DNA of 64,000 nt from Escherichia phage vB_EcoM_LMP25. The DNA is taken from the sequence record MK482688.1; one strand, written 5' to 3'. Both the position numbers and the translations under genes were made by a program. Under the pieces are notes generated by a model. The model saw only the letters and a program-made list of their open reading frames with translations. It was not told the DNA's origin and searched no databases. Every line of letters begins with the position of its first letter. Within the stretch, counting starts at the first letter, position 1. This document shows, piece after piece, positions 9,128 through 20,914 of this stretch.

Positions 9128-9190
9128 TTTTGAATCTCCAGTTTAGGACTTTATTTAGTGGGGAAGGTCATTCCCTCCCCGTTGATGCAA
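9128..9190 (-). promoter_or_regulatory. F1 intergenic cassette
   Basis: Conserved block upstream of first array gene. Confidence 0.5.
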
Positions 9191-9219
9191 ATACTAGATA
9201 ACCACGTTCAAAGAGTCAA
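9191..9219 (-). promoter_or_regulatory. sigma70-like promoter for early array
   Basis: On - strand TTGACT (9219-9214), 17 nt spacer, TAGTAT (9196-9191). Confidence 0.4.
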
Positions 9220-9341
9220 GAAAAAATTTTAAAAATATTTTTGGCAAAACTGTAATGAAACGGGCGCACACAACTACCACAAAACAGAACACAAATCAAG
9301 AATTATTTTTCAATCCGCTACAAATTTTTCTCTTGACTTTT

Positions 9342-9372
9342 GGGGAGAGGGGGAGTAAGAGGGGGAGAGGGG
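9342..9372 (+). repeat. polypurine mirror repeat / G-quadruplex motif
   Basis: GGGGagaGGGGGagtaagaGGGGGagaGGGG; four G-runs of 4-5 with loops of 3, 7 and 3 nt. Confidence 0.6.
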
Positions 9373-9395
9373 TTGGTCTGGCTCTCTATAAAAAC

Positions 9396-9590
9396 CTACC
9401 TGCACAAATCTAAAATGATTTTTCTTGCCCGACCTGAGTGTGGTCTGCACGTTTTGAAAATGAAAAAGCTCTTTGGAGATTATCTGCACAGTTTGAAAAT
9501 GAATTTTCTCTTTGGAGTTCAAAATTCTCTCTACAGATTTCTCTACAGAACTCTACCTGCACAATTCTGAAATGAAAAAGCCCTCCTTAC
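9396..9590. repeat. four direct repeats CTGCAC-N3-TTGAAAATGA at about 40 bp spacing
   Basis: Copies near 9405, 9440, 9484 and 9560 on + strand; no ORF. Confidence 0.5.
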
Positions 9591-9648
9591 CTGAAAAATT
9601 TACCAGATAAGAAAGGCTTAGGCTATTGTGAATATCCTACAGAGTTTC

Positions 9649-10434
9649 TTAGTTCTTTGCGTCTAAGAAGGTAACTTCTGGTGAAGAGAAAACTGTCTCG
9701 ATATCCTCATCAGTTCTTGCATAGATATAAGTATCTGCATCACTGCCAAATGTTACTGCAATCCTGTGATTGCTCTTCGACAGGTGGGTAACTAGAGCGT
9801 TACTTAGAGACATCTTTTCAACCGGAGGGTTACTTTGATGTATCTTACCTTTTCTTCGTCTGAAGAGGGTAACTGCGTTATCTGTGAACACTGCTACACC
9901 TGCAAAGTATTCTGGTTCACAGTAGTTCTTCCAACCTGAGCGTAACTTGTGGTACATCTCTCCTTCGTAGACATAAAGATACACATCTACACTCTTCATC
10001 ACCTGATTAATGATAACTGTGACGGCTTGAGGGTCTAGTCCACCGATACCTGCACCAATCATAGGTAACCCAACTTTCTTCAACTGATTGACTTCACAGT
10101 ATCTGTTAAGTTGTTTCAAAGATGACTCTAAAGCACTGTATCGGGCATCTTTACCAGTCTTAAGCTGAGTGTAAAGGTTAGCTATACGGCCTTGTTCTAA
10201 ACGTGCTACAGAGAAATTACCCAGTAGATTTTCACAGGGTTTGTGACCTATACCACCTGCATAGAGGTAAACTTCTGTATCGGTCTCATATGCTTTTGGG
10301 TAAAGTTTAGAAATCTTGTCAGCGATACCTGCACCCATTAAATTCATACAGTTGCAACCGTGACCAATGATGTCAAACTTACCTTTATCAAATGCTGCAA
10401 AGATATCGCCATTGATGATTTTTACAATACCCAT
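9649..10434 (-). CDS. macro-domain-like protein (putative ADP-ribose binding/processing) with unknown C-terminal domain
   Basis: N-terminal GDIF..DIIGHGCNCMNLMGAGIADKI and GLPMIGAGIGGLD resemble macro-domain Gly-rich motifs (from memory). Confidence 0.45.
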   Translation of the reverse strand: MGIVKIINGDIFAAFDKGKFDIIGHGCNCMNLMGAGIADKISKLYPKAYETDTEVYLYAGGIGHKPCENLLGNFSVARLEQGRIANLYTQLKTGKDARYSALESSLKQLNRYCEVNQLKKVGLPMIGAGIGGLDPQAVTVIINQVMKSVDVYLYVYEGEMYHKLRSGWKNYCEPEYFAGVAVFTDNAVTLFRRRKGKIHQSNPPVEKMSLSNALVTHLSKSNHRIAVTFGSDADTYIYARTDEDIETVFSSPEVTFLDAKN

Positions 10435-10635
10435 TTAACATCTCTCCCAAGATTCTTTATCTTCTGAAGGTTTTACACGTTGCCCTTCGTGGTCTACCCA
10501 GATGCACCCACAACCTTCACAGATTACTGGCATTGCGTAGCCAGCTTTAAAGTCATCTTCAGTGATAAGACCTTTTAAGTCACCTGTATCACGTCCGAAC
10601 ATTTCGATAGAACAATCTTTACAGAAGTCAGCCAT
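10435..10635 (-). CDS. small zinc-ribbon protein
   Basis: CKDC...CEGCGC cysteine pairs; ATG at 10635 (track start 10713 is further upstream). Confidence 0.4.
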   Translation of the reverse strand: MADFCKDCSIEMFGRDTGDLKGLITEDDFKAGYAMPVICEGCGCIWVDHEGQRVKPSEDKESWERC

Positions 10636-12462: not shown

Positions 12463-13158
12463 TCAATGTTTAACTAACATGGTTTTAATGTGTGGAAGGA
12501 TTCTGTTCACCTTTTGCACATTCTTCTCTGTGTCTTCTATAAAACATACTATATTAAAGTAAGGCAGAATGCAAGACTGAATCATCCTCACTTTCAAACT
12601 TTCTGCACTTATAGAGTTAGTCCCAAAACCACGCATAAAAAGCATGTAATCATGCTCTATGTAATGCCTTAAAAACATCTCAGTAGGTATTCTCTGAGAT
12701 TCACCTCTCGCTGTCAAGAGTCCAATGGCGGCATGATTAGCAATTGCATCAATAATATTGAAAACATACGTTGGTTTTGCTCTTACAGAGTCAAGCAAAT
12801 TAGTGTACTGTGAAAATGACCCATCAATCAATTCCGTTGAGTAATCTTCGTGATTAAAATTTGTAAGAACACCATCAATGTCTGCTAAGATAAGGTTACC
12901 TTTTTCTACAAGGTCTTTATTGACTATGACTAAGCTGTCACGCCTTACACCTATAGTTTGTCCAGTCTCTTTATCTACAACATTCACAATTGTCTCTAAT
13001 GTGTGGAACTCTTCGAGTGAACATACAACTTCTCTTGCGGTATCTTCAAAATCCCTACACTGTTCTGGAGTCCATACACAGGAATCAAGACCTAACTCAT
13101 GAGGATGTAAGTCATAAGCATGACACAGTACTTCATCAGACTTTCTTAATTTTTTCAT
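12463..13158 (-). CDS. HAD-superfamily phosphatase / nucleotidase-like
   Basis: LADIDGVLT matches HAD motif I (DxDG). Confidence 0.5.
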   Translation of the reverse strand: MKKLRKSDEVLCHAYDLHPHELGLDSCVWTPEQCRDFEDTAREVVCSLEEFHTLETIVNVVDKETGQTIGVRRDSLVIVNKDLVEKGNLILADIDGVLTNFNHEDYSTELIDGSFSQYTNLLDSVRAKPTYVFNIIDAIANHAAIGLLTARGESQRIPTEMFLRHYIEHDYMLFMRGFGTNSISAESLKVRMIQSCILPYFNIVCFIEDTEKNVQKVNRILPHIKTMLVKH

Positions 13159-17915: not shown

Positions 17916-19697
17916 TTAAAGCTGCTTGTCAATATTATTTCGAATATCACCAAGAGTTGTGTAGCCGAACTGCTCAGAGTCACTAAAGACTAGACGTAAA
18001 GCACAAGCTGGATGTTCAAGTGCATCTGCAAAGCTCTGGAACCCATAGCCATCTACAGCTTTCAGATTTTCACCATCCCACATAGGTGCTACACCACCAA
18101 AAGCAGACTTCTTAACACCACTATCTGTTTTAGGGTCTTTTGCAAGCATAATCTCTTTACCACCAATGCTTGCAAGGGTTGCTTTGACAGCAAATGCAAA
18201 GGTGTCACGAGTCATGTACTGGTAAGTGTAAGAGCCTACGCCAAACACTACGTTAGAGCTTGCAAAACCCATTTCATACAGGCGCTTCAGGATTTCGTTT
18301 GCACGTTCCAACGTGATAGAGTCGCCATAGATAAGGCCAATGTGCTCATCCAGTACCTTAAAACCTTTAGAGTTGATAGTTCCTCCAAAGATGTTATACA
18401 AGGTCTTAATAGCTCCATCAATCTCTGCTACAGGGCGTGTTACAACGTTTGCAGAGCCAACCATATAAGCGTTCTTCAACATCACTGTGTCAGCAACTTC
18501 AAAGTCTTCTCTATCAACAACCATTTCGTAGCCTTCTGACAGTAGCCATCCAGCAATACCATAGTTGATGTTTTCAAGCTTCATGTTAAGAACAGCATTC
18601 AACATTGTGTCACTGGCTTCCAGCTTGCTTAGGTGCTCGTAATAAGCCTTCTTAGCACATTCTAAGTGGATTGCTTTATAACCTGTGACAATATGTACAG
18701 GGTCTCCAGAGTCAGGACGAATTACCAGTTTGCCATCACGTTCCATAATTTCTTTACGGAGTGCTGGTAAAATTTCTGACACAGTTCTCCAGAAGTTATA
18801 AGTGTCTGAAACAATGCTTGCAATACCTGTTGGGTAAGTTTCTGTTAAGAAACGACGGAAGGTTTGTAACTCACCTTTAAAGCGTCTTTCTTCTTCAATC
18901 AACTCATTACCACCTTCCCAAGCAATGTTTGCACACATTACAGAGTGCTCAGTGGCTGGTACAGAACTACCAATATCAGAGATTGGGTAGGACTGTCCAT
19001 AGATTCGTTTAGCCGTGTATACAGCAGGGAAGCTATCAGTCCCTTTAAAGCTGGTTAAGTGACCTACAGCGTTAAATGCGTCATCAGTAAAGCCGGACAT
19101 ACCACGCATAGCAAAATCATGGCACTGATAAGGTAAATGTAAGTCATTGTCACAAGTAAGGTCAGCCCACTTCTTACAGATGCGTTTGTAATGCAATGCA
19201 ATAGTTGCAATGGTGCAAGCCTTCCAAATTTCAGCAGAGAAAGCATCTTCCAGATAACCTGCTACCCAATGAAAACCTGAAACAGTGTTCTGAAAGACAA
19301 TCATCGGGACACGCATTGGAACAACTGTGCCTTCTTCTACAGCGTATACTTCAACTGGTAGATAACCTAAGTCGTGAAGTGCTTCCCAATGCTCTCGACC
19401 GATAGCATCTTTACCCAGAACACCATTCATGACTTCTAAGATTTCATCAATGGCTTCTTTTTTATCACGTTCAAAGAAAGTGGCATTCCAGTGGTCTATC
19501 AAGTAATCTTTAACAAAACGTTGAATACCAAAAGCCACTACACCGTCAATTGCTAAGGGGCTGTTAAACCATTTGTCGCTACGTGGTGTCAGATTGAACA
19601 TCAAGTACTCTGTTGCGCTAGGATACTGGTAAACATGACCAGATTTGTAAGCATCTGCATTTAAACCTGCTGGTACTGCATAAAGTGATTTAGTCAT
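17916..19697 (-). CDS. nicotinamide phosphoribosyltransferase family protein (NAMPT/NadV-like; possibly Namat-like)
   Basis: DAYKSGHVYQYP, HDFAMRGMSGF..SFKGTD, VPATEHSVM, IRPDSGDPV, IYGDSI motifs match NAMPT family (from memory); ATG and SD verified. Confidence 0.8.
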   Translation of the reverse strand: MTKSLYAVPAGLNADAYKSGHVYQYPSATEYLMFNLTPRSDKWFNSPLAIDGVVAFGIQRFVKDYLIDHWNATFFERDKKEAIDEILEVMNGVLGKDAIGREHWEALHDLGYLPVEVYAVEEGTVVPMRVPMIVFQNTVSGFHWVAGYLEDAFSAEIWKACTIATIALHYKRICKKWADLTCDNDLHLPYQCHDFAMRGMSGFTDDAFNAVGHLTSFKGTDSFPAVYTAKRIYGQSYPISDIGSSVPATEHSVMCANIAWEGGNELIEEERRFKGELQTFRRFLTETYPTGIASIVSDTYNFWRTVSEILPALRKEIMERDGKLVIRPDSGDPVHIVTGYKAIHLECAKKAYYEHLSKLEASDTMLNAVLNMKLENINYGIAGWLLSEGYEMVVDREDFEVADTVMLKNAYMVGSANVVTRPVAEIDGAIKTLYNIFGGTINSKGFKVLDEHIGLIYGDSITLERANEILKRLYEMGFASSNVVFGVGSYTYQYMTRDTFAFAVKATLASIGGKEIMLAKDPKTDSGVKKSAFGGVAPMWDGENLKAVDGYGFQSFADALEHPACALRLVFSDSEQFGYTTLGDIRNNIDKQL

Positions 19698-19716
19698 CTT
19701 TTAATCTCTCTCAAAA

Positions 19717-19734
19717 TGGGGCTTGGAAGCCCCT
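19717..19734 (-). other. intergenic stem-loop between Prs-like and NAMPT-like genes
   Basis: GGGGCTT..AAGCCCC hairpin, short U-run only. Confidence 0.35.
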
Positions 19735-19742
19735 ATAAAGTT

Positions 19743-20624
19743 TTAATCAAGGTTTGCTACAGTAACTTGGCTATAATGTGTTAAGCCACGGTCTTTAGCT
19801 TCCCCTAAAGAGTTTGTAGTGTAGATATGGTCAATACCATTGTCAAGCAAGTTTTCAACATCTTTAGAGAAAATACCATGAGTTACATAGAGTTCCACAC
19901 GTTTTGCACCTGCTTCACGAAGATGTTTGGCTGCTTCTATGAAGGTTCGACCTCCATCACAAATATCATCCAGAATCATGACAGTTTTATCTGTCAAATC
20001 AACATCGTCAAGGATTCGCATACCAGTAATTTCACCAGTCTTAAGGTTACGCACCTTAGACATTGTGATGTATGGTTTATCCACCTCTTTAGCAGTCTCT
20101 GCAATCTTCTTAGCAGCACCTGCATCTGGGGCTACTAAGTAATCAATCAGTGGGTCATTTGCGTAGTGAACTGCAATCTCCTTTTGAGGAATACTCTGGA
20201 AGCAGTTAAACAGGTTATCTGGAACGTAACTGTGAGGGTCAACTGCACAGACTGCACCAAATCCCATTGCATTTACCTGTTTAGCAAAAACCTTTAAAGC
20301 TGCTGCGTCGCCTTTAAACATGTGACGGTCATAACGTGCATTTGGTAAGTAGTAAAAGATGACAGTCTTTAAAGCATAATCATGAGGAATTAAATCATCA
20401 ATTGCTTCTTTAGCAAGTGCCACAGCAAACAATGTATCCTTATCATAACCTTTTACAATCATAATCACATTGTTGATGGATGATGCTGCATAAGCAGTGA
20501 AATCAACAAACTCTGGCGAAAAGTGCCCACCAATCTCACCAGAAGGAAATTGGATGATGTTAAACTCTTCTTCATGAGTTCCTTTAGTTGGTGAATGAAC
20601 TGTAACACGGATAGATGTTTTCAT
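19743..20624 (-). CDS. ribose-phosphate pyrophosphokinase (PRPP synthetase) family protein (possibly ADPR-PP synthetase-like)
   Basis: VMILDDICDGGRT PRPP-binding loop and Prs-like N-half; ATG at 20624 (track start 20639 is TTG). Confidence 0.7.
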   Translation of the reverse strand: MKTSIRVTVHSPTKGTHEEEFNIIQFPSGEIGGHFSPEFVDFTAYAASSINNVIMIVKGYDKDTLFAVALAKEAIDDLIPHDYALKTVIFYYLPNARYDRHMFKGDAAALKVFAKQVNAMGFGAVCAVDPHSYVPDNLFNCFQSIPQKEIAVHYANDPLIDYLVAPDAGAAKKIAETAKEVDKPYITMSKVRNLKTGEITGMRILDDVDLTDKTVMILDDICDGGRTFIEAAKHLREAGAKRVELYVTHGIFSKDVENLLDNGIDHIYTTNSLGEAKDRGLTHYSQVTVANLD

Positions 20625-20635
20625 AGTTTTCTCTC

Positions 20636-20914
20636 TCAATCAAAAGTTACGTTTGTTACTGCCATTGCAGATTTGCATTTTGCAGGGTCTACAACGTGAT
20701 AAAGTACACTACAGTTACCTGTGCTGTCTGGTACAGGTTTAACCCATTGTTGCTTGACAGTTGGTTCGCCTAAGTCTTTGTAAGAACCATCTGTAAAGTT
20801 GTTTACCATCTCAAGTGCAATTGGCTCTGGAACATGACCACGTATCATGTACATTTCACAACCATTACCTCCTTCACTGACTAATGGTAAAATCTCCCAC
20901 TTTTCTTTAGCCAT
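20636..20914 (-). CDS. hypothetical protein
   Basis: 92 aa ORF. Confidence 0.45.
   Translation of the reverse strand: MAKEKWEILPLVSEGGNGCEMYMIRGHVPEPIALEMVNNFTDGSYKDLGEPTVKQQWVKPVPDSTGNCSVLYHVVDPAKCKSAMAVTNVTFD

What the first reader, a model, noticed from the sequence alone, without database searches (positions are those of the whole stretch)
9649..10434. Macro-domain-like protein with unknown C-terminal domain
The N-terminal half carries Gly-rich motifs reminiscent of macro domains, which bind or hydrolyse ADP-ribose derivatives. In a phage this could reverse host ADP-ribosylation-based immunity (for example DarT-type DNA ADP-ribosylation) or degrade ADPR-derived signals. It sits at the edge of the early-gene array and is coupled to a small zinc-ribbon ORF.
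Basis: inference. Interest (0 to 1): 0.6.

Follow-up and report, generated by a model that had tools for sequence, protein, structure and literature searches.

The report
Phage macrodomain enzyme with orphan tail
This gene of a Felix-O1-type E. coli phage encodes a real macrodomain (an enzyme fold that processes ADP-ribose) joined to a fast-evolving domain of unknown fold, and it most likely helps the phage undo or recycle ADP-ribose products made by bacterial immune systems.

Summary
ORF 9649-10434 (minus strand, 261 aa) of Escherichia phage vB_EcoM_LMP33 (Felixounavirus) has an N-terminal macrodomain, residues 1-157. Pfam scores it above threshold, and the AlphaFold2 model (pLDDT 89.5) matches TARG1, DarG and Poa1p (TM 0.75-0.86). 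Both Gly-rich loops are conserved.

It belongs to a large phage clade with invariant HGCNC, MGxGxA, NxY(T)Q and PxIGxG motifs. An invariant Gln sits where TARG1 and DarG have the catalytic Lys, as in SCO6735, a Gln-type enzyme that cleaves thymidine-linked ADP-ribose.

Two clade members have been characterised:
- T4 Tk.4/AdfM (34-35% identity) is needed to escape DarTG2.
- Vibrio phage Gary Adpp (about 28%) is an ADPR-1''-phosphate phosphatase that feeds the NARP1 NAD+ pathway.

This phage carries NARP1 7.5-9.3 kb upstream. Sequence and phylogeny cannot choose between the two roles.

The C-terminal domain, residues about 158-261:
- is beta-rich and confidently modelled;
- has no relative in Pfam, the PDB, BFVD or 1.84 billion protein representatives;
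- occurs only in Ounavirinae;
- evolves about twice as fast as the macrodomain;
- is swapped as an allele within otherwise 95-100% identical genomes.

Verdict: a known kind of counter-defence enzyme in a new two-domain form. Interest is moderate.

The parts
9649..10434 (-). Complete gene, 261 aa plus TAA: macrodomain followed by an orphan C-terminal domain
   Evidence: ORF list. PHROG 335 at E=2e-113. 100% identical to the phage LMP33 gene. AlphaFold2 model with pLDDT 89.5 and pTM 0.88.
9964..10434 (-). Macrodomain, residues 1-157
   Evidence: Pfam PF01661 at 32.1 bits, above the cut-off of 22. Foldseek to TARG1, DarG and Poa1p with target TM 0.75-0.86. 34-35% identical to T4 Tk.4.
10348..10362 (-). 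H25-G-C-N28-C motif. N28 aligns with DarG N22 and, by transitivity, SCO6735 N27. H25 aligns with TARG1 H32 and, by spacing only, SCO6735 H24.
   Evidence: In the 47 phage clade members, N28 and C29 are in all 47 and H25 is in 45. Alignment with DarG, phiKZ gp104 and TARG1. Roles of N27 and H24 in SCO6735 from PMC9411070.
10321..10338 (-). Gly-rich loop 1, M33-G-A-G-I-A38 (ADP-ribose binding loop)
   Evidence: M33, G34, G36 and A38 are invariant in the phage clade and shared with DarG, phiKZ gp104 and TARG1.
10165..10179 (-). N86-L-Y-T-Q90 motif. Q90 occupies the position of the catalytic Lys of TARG1 (K84), DarG (K80) and phiKZ AdfM (K78).
   Evidence: HMM alignment to TARG1. MAFFT alignment with DarG. 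Q is in 47 of 47 clade members, against K in all four Lys-type proteins. SCO6735 Gln85 is described as the equivalent of that Lys and as essential (PMC9411070).
10039..10065 (-). Gly-rich loop 2, P124-M-I-G-A-G-I-G-G132 (phosphate-binding loop). TARG1 D125 aligns with G131.
   Evidence: P124 and G129 are invariant and G127 is in 45 of 47.
9652..9963 (-). C-terminal orphan domain, residues 158-261: a linker helix, six beta-strands and a short helix
   Evidence: AlphaFold2 models. No Pfam, PDB or BFVD relative. Only family members in sequence searches. Found only in Ounavirinae-type loci. Evolves about twice as fast as the macrodomain.
10435..10635 (-). Upstream 66-aa Cys-rich ORF (CxxC...CxxCxC), apparently translationally coupled: its TAA abuts the macro ATG
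   Evidence: Sequence read. PHROG 2210 at E=8e-41, function unknown. 98-100% conserved even next to the divergent macro allele. No significant zinc-ribbon family.
9578..9619 (-). Terminator-like hairpin (17-pair stem followed by a T run) starting about 30 nt after the macro stop codon
   Evidence: Consensus scan and sequence read. This is a pattern match only.
17916..20639 (-). Context only: the NARP1 operon. Namat-like gene at 17916-19697 and Adps (Prs-like) gene at 19743-20639, same strand, 7.5-9.3 kb upstream. It is a candidate metabolic partner under the rival explanation.
   Evidence: Pfam NAPRTase plus NAMPT_N, and Pribosyltran plus Pribosyl_synth. The homologous genes 79-80 of the Felixounavirus Bas63 are the founding NARP1 example (bioRxiv 10.1101/2024.02.11.579819). 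The spacing is conserved in Ounavirinae-type loci wherever the flank is long enough.

Best explanation
The gene encodes a two-domain counter-defence enzyme.

Shown here: residues 1-157 form a macrodomain of the TARG1/DarG/SCO6735/Poa1p (ALC1-like) class. It belongs to a large phage clade that also holds T4 Tk.4 and the NARP1-associated Adpp. It keeps every ADP-ribose-binding and catalytic-site motif of that clade.

Inferred mechanism: it binds the ADP-ribose moiety with the two Gly-rich loops. It then hydrolyses whatever is attached to C1'' of the distal ribose by a water-mediated, Gln-type mechanism and releases free ADP-ribose. Q90, held in place by N28, positions the ribose, as in SCO6735. 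There is no Lys nucleophile.

Most likely physiological role (inferred from the closest characterised relative, T4 Tk.4/AdfM): it removes ADP-ribose that DarT2-type toxins put on thymidines of single-stranded phage DNA, so that replication continues. In effect it is an orphan antitoxin.

The C-terminal domain of about 100 aa has no conserved catalytic-type residue. I take it to be a non-catalytic binding or specificity module, for a substrate or for a host protein, that is under rapid diversification.

The gene is the last cistron of its transcription unit and is translationally coupled to a small Cys-rich ORF of unknown role.
For: Fold and family: Pfam Macro above its cut-off. Profile hits to TARG1, DarG, SCO6735 and Poa1p at 1e-13 to 4e-17. 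A high-confidence model with Foldseek target TM 0.75-0.86. DarG is the only NCBIfam hit and the only PADLOC hit.

Active-site integrity: N28, M33, G34, G36, A38, N86, Y88, Q90, P124 and G129 are invariant in 47 clade members.

A Gln at the Lys position is compatible with DarT2 reversal. SCO6735 Gln85 is essential, and that enzyme cleaves thymidine-linked ADPr and rescues cells from DarT (PMC9411070).

Closest characterised relative: T4 Tk.4, 34-35% identity, 82 bits, same motifs. A transposon screen and a clean knockout show that it is needed on DarTG2 hosts (bioRxiv 10.1101/2025.11.20.689424).

Precedent for macrodomain orphan antitoxins in phages: the chimallivirus AdfM (PMC13309987).

Arms-race signature: a macro allele only 53% (macrodomain) and 26% (C-terminal domain) identical sits in genomes whose flanks, Adps, Namat and Cys-rich ORF are 90-100% identical. 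The C-terminal domain diverges about twice as fast as the macrodomain.

Architecture parallel: DarG is also a macrodomain followed by a C-terminal toxin-binding domain (PMC11481870).
Against: - No biochemical or genetic data exist for any Ounavirinae member, and I found no paper that tests a Felixounavirus against DarTG.
- T4 Tk.4 has genetics only, and from a preprint.
- The equally related Adpp (28% identity to this protein, but 34% to Tk.4) is a proven ADPR-1''P phosphatase. This phage has the NARP1 pathway that such an enzyme would serve.
- Phylogeny does not resolve the matter. The Ounavirinae group has 56% bootstrap support and lies outside the group that holds both Tk.4 and Adpp.
- The protein fails the DarG equivalog cut-off (48 against 250 bits) and lacks the DarG Lys.
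- Its charge is not consistent across the family, with pI from 4.6 to 8.9, so it is neither a conserved DNA mimic nor a conserved DNA binder.
Confidence: 0.4

Rival explanations
1. An Adpp-type ADPR-1''-phosphate phosphatase. RES-domain defence proteins (aRES) split NAD+ into nicotinamide and ADPR-1''-phosphate, which NARP1 cannot use. The macrodomain would remove the 1''-phosphate so that the phage's own Adps and Namat can rebuild NAD+. That would make it an unlinked version of the NARP1-AP pathway.
For: - Adpp of Vibrio phage Gary is a Poa1p-like macrodomain of the same clade and has proven phosphatase activity (bioRxiv 10.64898/2026.01.28.702374). Its 94%-identical orthologue BBMuffin gp178 sits between Adps and Namat. 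It shares HxCNC, the Gln and both Gly loops with the window protein.
- The window encodes NARP1, which has been shown to work in the Felixounavirus Bas63.
- The macro-to-NARP1 spacing is conserved across Ounavirinae.
- Adps homologues occur in several other phage groups that also carry this macrodomain, including Pakpunavirus-like Pseudomonas phages, Vibrio phages and rV5-like phages.
- GenBank annotators already call the gene a 'phosphatase'.
Against: - The gene is 7.5-9.3 kb and more than ten genes away from NARP1, in a separate transcription unit. The family as described is defined by lying within two genes of NARP1.
- Identity to Adpp (28%, 57 bits) is lower than to T4 Tk.4 (34%, 82 bits).
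- A housekeeping-type metabolic step does not obviously need a rapidly diverging extra domain, or allele replacement in genomes whose NARP1 genes stay 97-98% identical.
- Most clade members, such as those of T4-like phages, lie in genomes with no NARP1 genes within 10 kb.
Confidence: 0.3
2. A hydrolase for other ADP-ribose conjugates or signals. Candidates are Thoeris-type cyclic ADPR isomers, and ADP-ribose on RNA or proteins put there by other host (or phage) ADP-ribosyltransferases.
For: - Macrodomains are versatile on substrates linked at the 1'' position. Iyer and Aravind argued that phage macrodomains mainly target soluble ADPR derivatives (PMC9503650).
- Accessory enzymes that turn ADPR derivatives into ADPR for NARP1 are an emerging theme, for example RyDEP (bioRxiv 10.64898/2026.05.28.727677).
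- SCO6735 also removes ADP-ribose from protein.
Against: I found no characterised member of this phage clade with such an activity. The known enzyme that degrades Thoeris signals is an unrelated fold. No ADP-ribosyltransferase gene was noticed next to the gene.
Confidence: 0.12
3. A housekeeping Poa1p-like role in RNA repair: clearing ADP-ribose-1''-phosphate produced when a 2'-phosphotransferase completes tRNA repair, together with the nearby polynucleotide-kinase-like gene.
For: - The 'A1pp phosphatase' annotation and the similarity to Poa1p.
- A PNK/HAD-like gene lies about 2 kb upstream in all Ounavirinae-type loci and in more distant relatives.
Against: - No Tpt1/KptA-type 2'-phosphotransferase and no RNA ligase was seen in the annotated neighbourhood.
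- The 231-aa PNK-like ORF has no Pfam hit here.
- The synteny is simply the conserved genome backbone.
- T4-type RNA repair leaves no 2'-phosphate (established knowledge).
Confidence: 0.05
4. A non-catalytic ADP-ribose binder or direct inhibitor. The macrodomain would only dock on an ADPR ligand or on the toxin, while the C-terminal domain does the work by binding a host defence protein.
For: - Catalytically dead SCO6735, DarG and TARG1 still inhibit DarT by interaction (PMC9411070).
- ICP1 AdfB neutralises DarT by binding it (PMC11481870).
- The C-terminal domain evolves fast.
Against: All residues needed for catalysis in the Gln-type enzymes are invariant across 47 diverse clade members. That argues for retained enzymatic activity.
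Confidence: 0.05

Closest known systems
T4 Tk.4 (named AdfM in the HIDEN-SEQ preprint, bioRxiv 10.1101/2025.11.20.689424)
   Same: Same phage macrodomain clade. 34-35% identity over residues 3-157, 82 bits. Identical HGCNC, MGxG, NLYTQ and PxIGAGIG motifs, including Gln at the Lys position. Both are orphan phage genes with no adjacent toxin.
   Different: Tk.4 is a bare 155-aa macrodomain with no C-terminal domain. T4 has no NARP1. The genomic context differs: Tk.4 overlaps the vs gene and has no Cys-rich ORF upstream. The T4-like group forms its own clade with 99% support, separate from the Ounavirinae proteins.
Adpp, the NARP1-associated ADPR-1''-phosphate phosphatase of Vibrio phage Gary (bioRxiv 10.64898/2026.01.28.702374)
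   Same: Same clade and motifs (HQCNC, NVYGQ, PLIGCG). Both phages encode Adps and Namat.
   Different: Only about 28% identical (57 bits). Adpp is a single domain of 158 aa. It sits between Adps and Namat, whereas this gene lies 7.5-9.3 kb away in another transcription unit.
SCO6735 of Streptomyces coelicolor (PDB 5e3b; PMC9411070)
   Same: ALC1-like class macrodomain with Gln, not Lys, at the catalytic position, and the supporting Asn. The family profile hits it at E=2.4e-15. It provides the mechanistic precedent that a Gln-type site can cleave thymidine-linked ADP-ribose.
   Different: A bacterial, DNA-damage-regulated, single-domain protein. Residue equivalence (H24, N27, Q85 with H25, N28, Q90) was reached by transitivity through TARG1 and DarG, and for H24 by spacing, not by a direct alignment here. 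Its Val25 is Gly26 in the phage clade.
DarG antitoxin (DarTG2) and the DarG-like chimallivirus AdfM (phiKZ gp104; PMC13309987)
   Same: Same macrodomain class and the same conserved Asn (DarG N22 = N28). Both have a two-domain layout with the macrodomain first. DarG is the only defence-related model that matches.
   Different: 48 bits against the NCBIfam cut-off of 250. Only the macro part of the model aligns (positions 4-154 of 338). DarG has a catalytic Lys where this protein has Gln. The C-terminal domain is unrelated. There is no adjacent darT. DarG and phiKZ gp104 form a separate clade with 98% support.
Human TARG1/OARD1 and yeast Poa1p
   Same: Best solved-structure matches by sequence profile and by fold: TARG1 at E=3.9e-17 and TM 0.81-0.86, Poa1p at 3.9e-15 and TM about 0.75.
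   Different: The TARG1 catalytic dyad K84/D125 corresponds to Q90/G131 here. Both are eukaryotic single-domain proteins with other cellular roles.

Membership tests
Macro domain superfamily (Pfam PF01661) | Sequence profile match above the curated threshold | tested here: met
   32.1 bits against a gathering score of 22, E=1.2e-7, residues 25-141 covering profile positions 2-117 of 118.
Macro domain superfamily (Pfam PF01661) | Macro fold (three-layer alpha/beta/alpha with a central mixed sheet) | tested here: met
   AlphaFold2 model with pLDDT 89.5. Foldseek to TARG1, DarG, Poa1p and viral macrodomains at probability 1.00 and target TM 0.70-0.86.
Macro domain superfamily (Pfam PF01661) | Two Gly-rich ADP-ribose/phosphate-binding loops | tested here: met
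   MGAGIA (33-38) and PMIGAGIGG (124-132) are conserved in the family and shared with DarG and TARG1.
DarG antitoxin (NCBIfam NF048014 equivalog) | Whole-protein score above the curated cut-off | tested here: not met
   48 bits against a cut-off of 250. Only model positions 4-154 of 338 align.
DarG antitoxin (NCBIfam NF048014 equivalog) | Catalytic Lys (Taq DarG K80) | tested here: not met
   Q90 aligns with K80 of DarG, K84 of TARG1 and K78 of phiKZ gp104. Gln is in 47 of 47 clade members.
DarG antitoxin (NCBIfam NF048014 equivalog) | C-terminal DarT-binding domain | tested here: not met
DarG antitoxin (NCBIfam NF048014 equivalog) | Adjacent darT toxin gene | tested here: not met
   The neighbours are small phage ORFs, spanins and a PNK-like gene. 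No ADP-ribosyltransferase is annotated.
Phage Gln-type macrodomain clade (T4 Tk.4/AdfM type) | Homology to T4 Tk.4 with the shared HGCNC, NLYTQ and PxIGAGIG motifs | tested here: met
   34-35% identity, E=2e-24 to 2e-25. Motif census.
Phage Gln-type macrodomain clade (T4 Tk.4/AdfM type) | Confers resistance to DarTG2; removes thymidine-linked ADP-ribose | not testable with these tools
   Needs plaque assays or biochemistry. Only T4 genetics exist.
Adpp / NARP1-AP pathway | Poa1p-like macrodomain homologous to Vibrio phage Gary Adpp | tested here: met
   28% identity, 57 bits, E=1e-15 to BBMuffin gp178, which is 94.3% identical to the Gary protein.
Adpp / NARP1-AP pathway | Encoded inside, or within two genes of, the Adps-Namat operon | tested here: not met
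   Namat lies 7.5 kb and Adps 9.3 kb upstream, with more than ten genes between, and this spacing is conserved in Ounavirinae. The criterion is taken from the preprint's methods.
Adpp / NARP1-AP pathway | NARP1 (Adps plus Namat) present in the same genome | tested here: met
   Window 17916-19697 and 19743-20639. Bas63 provides the precedent.
Adpp / NARP1-AP pathway | ADPR-1''-phosphate phosphatase activity | not testable with these tools
   Needs an enzyme assay with ADPR-1''P.
SCO6735-type (Gln) ALC1-like macrodomains | Gln at the TARG1 K84 / DarG K80 position, supported by the conserved Asn | tested here: met
   Q90 and N28 are invariant. Equivalence to SCO6735 Q85 and N27 is by transitivity through the TARG1 and DarG alignment and the paper's own statement. 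The profile hits 5e3b at E=2.4e-15.
Zinc ribbon (upstream 66-aa ORF) | Significant match to a zinc-ribbon family, or four Cys in a CxxC...CxxC arrangement | tested here: inconclusive
   The CxxC (5, 8) and CxxC (39, 42) pattern is present. The only Pfam hit is ZPR1 at E=0.44, well below its cut-off. PHROG 2210 has no assigned function.

The most novel reading that the evidence does not exclude
The Ounavirinae protein is a two-pronged counter-defence factor built like DarG but from a different part.
- The fast-evolving orphan C-terminal domain, a new fold, directly binds and blocks a variable host defence protein such as DarT2 or a RES NADase.
- The allele swapping seen among near-identical phages would then reflect host-specific matching of that binding module.
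Probability: 0.15. Interest if true: 0.65.

Novelty: new variant of a known kind. Interest (0 to 1): 0.42.

Why it matters
Macrodomain counter-defence enzymes in phages have only just been described: T4 Tk.4/AdfM, the chimallivirus AdfM and Adpp. Their substrate ranges are still open.

This protein sits between the two characterised activities. Felixounaviruses, including Bas63, the phage in which NARP1 was discovered, carry a macrodomain of the same clade that was not counted as NARP1-associated because it is not adjacent to the operon.

If it is an ADPR-1''P phosphatase, then NARP1-AP is more widespread than the reported 15% of NARP1 phages. If it reverses DarT2, it extends the T4 finding to a therapeutically relevant phage genus.

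In either case the orphan, rapidly diversifying C-terminal domain and the allele replacement mark a host-interaction hot spot. Both would be straightforward to test genetically in Bas63.

Tried and rejected
1. DarG membership was rejected: 48 against 250 bits, Gln in place of Lys, no DarT-binding domain and no adjacent darT.

2. A C-terminal domain related to a known fold was not found:
- No Pfam family. A PH-domain hint at E=0.04-0.15 is not significant.
- PHROGs return only its own family.
- PDB sequence search gives a best hit of BamB at E=0.035.
- BFVD returns only the SUSP2 orthologue.
- A word-indexed search of 5.8 billion clusters returns one fragment.
- An exhaustive profile search of 1.84 billion representatives returns family members plus marginal multi-stretch hits to beta-propeller or otherwise odd repeat proteins. 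I regard those as compositional.

3. Consistent charge of the C-terminal domain, as a DNA mimic or a DNA binder, was rejected: pI ranges from 4.6 to 8.9. The pI of the macrodomain also does not separate the candidate functions.

4. Phylogeny cannot assign the function. The deep nodes are unresolved, with the Ounavirinae group at 56% and the Adpp grouping at 35% bootstrap support.

5. A search of plasmids for annotated DarG relatives to align found only generic macro proteins.

6. The Kolesnikvirus C-terminal tail compared with the C-terminal profile shows no detectable similarity.

7. The afdb50 fold library was unavailable.

8. Literature searches found no paper that tests a Felixounavirus macrodomain or its sensitivity to DarTG.
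Full report
**What the window is.** The 2.2 kb around the finding is 100% identical to Escherichia phage vB_EcoM_LMP33, a Felixounavirus. It is 92-99% identical to about 200 other Felix-O1-like phages of Escherichia, Salmonella and Shigella. The finding coincides exactly with an ATG-to-TAA ORF of 261 aa on the minus strand, 9649-10434. GenBank annotators call the orthologue 'putative phosphatase', 'phosphatase' or 'hypothetical protein'. PHROGs files it in family 335, 'phosphatase', at E=2e-113.

**The macrodomain is real.**
- Pfam Macro (PF01661) matches residues 25-141 over nearly the whole model, at 32.1 bits against a gathering score of 22.
- A profile of 31 homologues hits solved structures of TARG1 (3.9e-17), M. 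tuberculosis DarG (4.6e-16), SCO6735 (2.4e-15), Poa1p (3.9e-15), BT1257 and T. aquaticus DarG (1.4e-13).
- An AlphaFold2 model built on that alignment is confident throughout, with pLDDT 89.5 and pTM 0.88.
- Foldseek ranks TARG1, DarG and Poa1p first, at E of about 1e-9 to 1e-10 and target TM of 0.75-0.86.
Both are invariant or nearly so.

**Which macrodomain.** The protein belongs to a very large phage clade. tblastn finds relatives in 2,848 phage records. The clade is defined by H-G-C-N-C, M-G-x-G-x-A, N-x-Y-T-Q and P-x-I-G-A-G. In a census of 47 diverse members, N28, C29, M33, G34, G36, A38, N86, Y88, Q90, P124 and G129 are invariant.

The key point is Q90. In the HMM alignment to TARG1 and in a MAFFT alignment with DarG and phiKZ gp104, it occupies the position of the catalytic lysine: TARG1 K84, DarG K80, phiKZ AdfM K78. 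TARG1 D125 corresponds to G131. So this is not a Lys-type (TARG1/DarG) enzyme.

The literature provides the precedent. SCO6735 of Streptomyces coelicolor has Gln85 at the position equivalent to that Lys. Q85A is inactive. Asn27 locks Gln85 in the productive rotamer. The enzyme cleaves thymidine-linked ADP-ribose on DNA efficiently and protects against DarT, through a proposed water-mediated mechanism (PMC9411070). By transitivity, N28 and Q90 correspond to SCO6735 N27 and Q85. I did not obtain a direct alignment to 5e3b, and I mark that step as inferred.

**Characterised relatives.** There are two, and they point in different directions.

(i) T4 Tk.4 is a 155-aa bare macrodomain with the same motifs. 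It is 34-35% identical to residues 3-157 (82 bits, E=2e-24 to 2e-25). A transposon-sequencing preprint found tk.4 to be the single T4 gene depleted on DarTG2 hosts, confirmed this with a clean knockout, and named it AdfM (bioRxiv 10.1101/2025.11.20.689424). No biochemistry is reported.

[quoted passage not shown] It is named Adpp and described as Poa1p-like. It was purified and shown to convert ADPR-1''-phosphate to ADPR, which lets NARP1 overcome the RES-domain defence aRES (bioRxiv 10.64898/2026.01.28.702374). Its 94.3%-identical orthologue, BBMuffin gp178, lies between the Prs-like and Nampt-like genes. It is 28% identical to the window protein (57 bits) and 34% identical to Tk.4 (74 bits), and it also has the Gln.

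The chimallivirus 'AdfM' (phiKZ gp104) is a different, DarG-like, Lys-type macrodomain (PMC13309987). The name AdfM therefore currently covers two clades.

In a neighbour-joining tree with 100 bootstraps:
- DarG plus phiKZ gp104 separate at 98%;
- T4-like Tk.4 proteins group at 99%;
- the Ounavirinae two-domain proteins form a weakly supported group (56%), outside the assemblage that holds both Tk.4 and Adpp;
- the Adpp grouping has only 35% support.

NCBIfam and PADLOC return only DarG, at similar sub-threshold scores for the window protein, Tk.4 and Adpp alike. Sequence therefore cannot decide the substrate.

**Genomic context.** The gene is the last of a run of minus-strand genes. In order these are rIIA, rIIB, lysin, a PNK-like gene, spanins, small ORFs, a 66-aa Cys-rich ORF and the macro gene.

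The Cys-rich ORF (CxxC...CxxCxC; PHROG 2210, function unknown) ends in a TAA that directly abuts the macro ATG, with GGGAGA 8 nt upstream, so translational coupling is plausible. A small ORF also abuts the macro start in more distant relatives. One carries a different CxxC...CxxC pattern and one has no Cys.

About 30 nt after the stop codon there is a 17-pair hairpin followed by a T run. A 520-bp ORF-poor spacer with 35-nt repeats comes next, and then more minus-strand small genes.

Upstream on the same strand, 7.5 and 9.3 kb away, are a Nampt-like and a Prs-like gene. In the Felixounavirus Bas63 these are Namat and Adps, the founding example of NARP1 (bioRxiv 10.1101/2024.02.11.579819).

In 79 IMG/VR loci carrying a relative:
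- all 31 Ounavirinae-type loci keep this layout wherever the flank is long enough;
- only 5 of the 48 other loci have a NARP1 gene within 10 kb.

**The C-terminal domain.** Residues about 158-261 are predicted with good confidence, both in the full-length model and alone (pLDDT 80.5). They form a linker helix, six beta-strands and a short helix. Every search came back empty or marginal:
- Pfam and PHROGs (own family only);
- PDB by sequence;
- BFVD, only the SUSP2 orthologue;
- 5.8 billion clusters, one fragment;
- an exhaustive profile search of 1.84 billion representatives, which gave six family members or fragments plus four marginal multi-stretch hits to beta-propeller or odd repeat proteins that I regard as compositional.

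The domain is lineage-restricted. All 31 Ounavirinae-type loci encode proteins of 259-264 aa with a 102-107-aa extension. By contrast, 47 of 48 other loci encode single-domain proteins of 146-195 aa.

The Erwinia Kolesnikvirus orthologue has a tail of the same length with no detectable similarity.

Only Pro174, Gly179 and Tyr236 are conserved. No catalytic-type residue is conserved, so I infer a non-enzymatic role. Its charge is inconsistent, with pI 4.6-8.9.

It diverges about twice as fast as the macrodomain. For example, identity is 81% for the macrodomain against 52% for the tail in one relative, and 54% against 22% in another.

Most striking are contigs L003, L037 and L038. They are Felixounavirus backbones whose flanks, Adps, Namat, rIIB and Cys-rich ORF are 90-100% identical to the window. 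Yet their macro gene is only 53% (macrodomain) and 26% (tail) identical, with no nucleotide similarity across most of the gene body. Closer alleles are mosaic by domain. This is the pattern of a host-interaction hot spot.

**Interpretation.**

Shown: a true, probably active, Gln-type macrodomain of the Tk.4/Adpp phage clade, fused to an orphan domain, in a phage that also carries NARP1.

Inferred: it hydrolyses a substituent at C1'' of ADP-ribose as a counter-defence step.

I rank DarT2 reversal first, at 0.4, for three reasons:
- the closest characterised relative is Tk.4;
- the Gln-type site has a direct precedent on thymidine-ADPr;
- the fast-evolving extra domain and the allele replacement fit a macromolecular arms race better than a metabolic step, and they echo the macrodomain-plus-binding-domain layout of DarG (PMC11481870).

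The Adpp role is a close second, at 0.3, because of NARP1 in the same genome and the proven chemistry in the clade. Against it stand the distance from the operon and the lower identity.

The two roles are not exclusive. Macrodomains are promiscuous (PMC9503650). In both cases the product is ADPR, the substrate of NARP1.

Minor rivals are other ADPR conjugates or signals, RNA-repair housekeeping, and a purely binding role.

**Novelty and score.** The macrodomain itself is already annotated and belongs to a recently characterised kind. What is new is the conserved two-domain architecture with an orphan, rapidly diversifying domain, its allele replacement, and its position in NARP1-bearing phages outside the operon.

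I file it as a new variant of a known kind, with interest 0.42. Bas63 genetics on DarTG2 and aRES hosts, together with two enzyme assays, would settle it.

Noticed in passing
window 17916-19697 (-) and 19743-20639 (-): Nampt-like and Prs-like genes that correspond to Namat and Adps of the NARP1 NAD+ reconstitution pathway described in the Felixounavirus Bas63. They are directly adjacent here, whereas phage ekra has an HNH homing endonuclease inserted between them.
   Followed up: partly
window 9128-9648: A 520-bp ORF-poor spacer downstream of the macro gene with three copies of a 35-nt direct repeat and a 36-nt pair (9383-9590). Other Felixounaviruses carry roughly 480 bp more DNA here, including an extra small CDS (ekra_13). 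It is an indel hot spot.
   Followed up: partly
L003:5143-5838; L037 and L038, 10001-10780: Felixounavirus contigs whose flanks, NARP1 genes, rIIB and upstream Cys-rich ORF are 90-100% identical to the window. Their macro gene is a replaced allele: the macrodomain is 53% identical, the C-terminal domain 26%, and there is no nucleotide similarity over most of the gene. Closer alleles are mosaic by domain, for example L026 with the macrodomain at 92% and the tail at 99%, against L012-L025 with 99% and 92-96%.
   Followed up: partly
L009:3498-4280 (Erwinia phage vEam_W_28, Kolesnikvirus): The orthologue keeps the 260-aa two-domain length but has Gln in place of His25 (GQGCNC). Its C-terminal 105 aa show no detectable similarity to the Felixounavirus tail.
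   Followed up: partly
L004:4810-5001 and L005:4688-4999: In distant two-domain relatives a small ORF also ends exactly at the macro start codon, but it is not homologous to the window's ORF. One carries a different CxxC...CxxC pattern and the other has no Cys. The coupling to a small upstream ORF is conserved, while its sequence is not.
   Followed up: partly
literature (bioRxiv 10.1101/2025.11.20.689424 and PMC13309987): The name AdfM has been given independently to two different macrodomain clades. T4 Tk.4 is Gln-type and Poa1p-like. Chimallivirus phiKZ gp104 is Lys-type and DarG-like. The two share only about 21 bits in BLASTP.
   Followed up: yes
window 12463-13158 (-): A 231-aa ORF annotated as 'polynucleotide kinase' in related phages has no Pfam hit at E of 0.01 or better. 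Its counterparts in distant relatives carry only weak or faint HAD_PNKP hits.
   Followed up: no
window 1-64000: ARAGORN finds no tRNA gene in the 64-kb window. GC skew is negative (about -0.05 to -0.2) from roughly 6 kb to 38 kb, positive (about +0.04 to +0.2) between 38 and 50 kb, and negative again beyond 50 kb. The positive stretch coincides with the plus-strand DNA polymerase/ligase/thymidylate synthase block seen in the ekra annotation.
   Followed up: no
C-terminal domain profile (alignment A2) against P0037, P0038 and PDB 8orr: The C-terminal profile gives marginal hits to PQQ/BamB-type and sortilin-type beta-propeller repeat proteins (E from 4e-4 to 0.035, in several stretches). This probably reflects a beta-meander pattern rather than homology.
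   Followed up: partly
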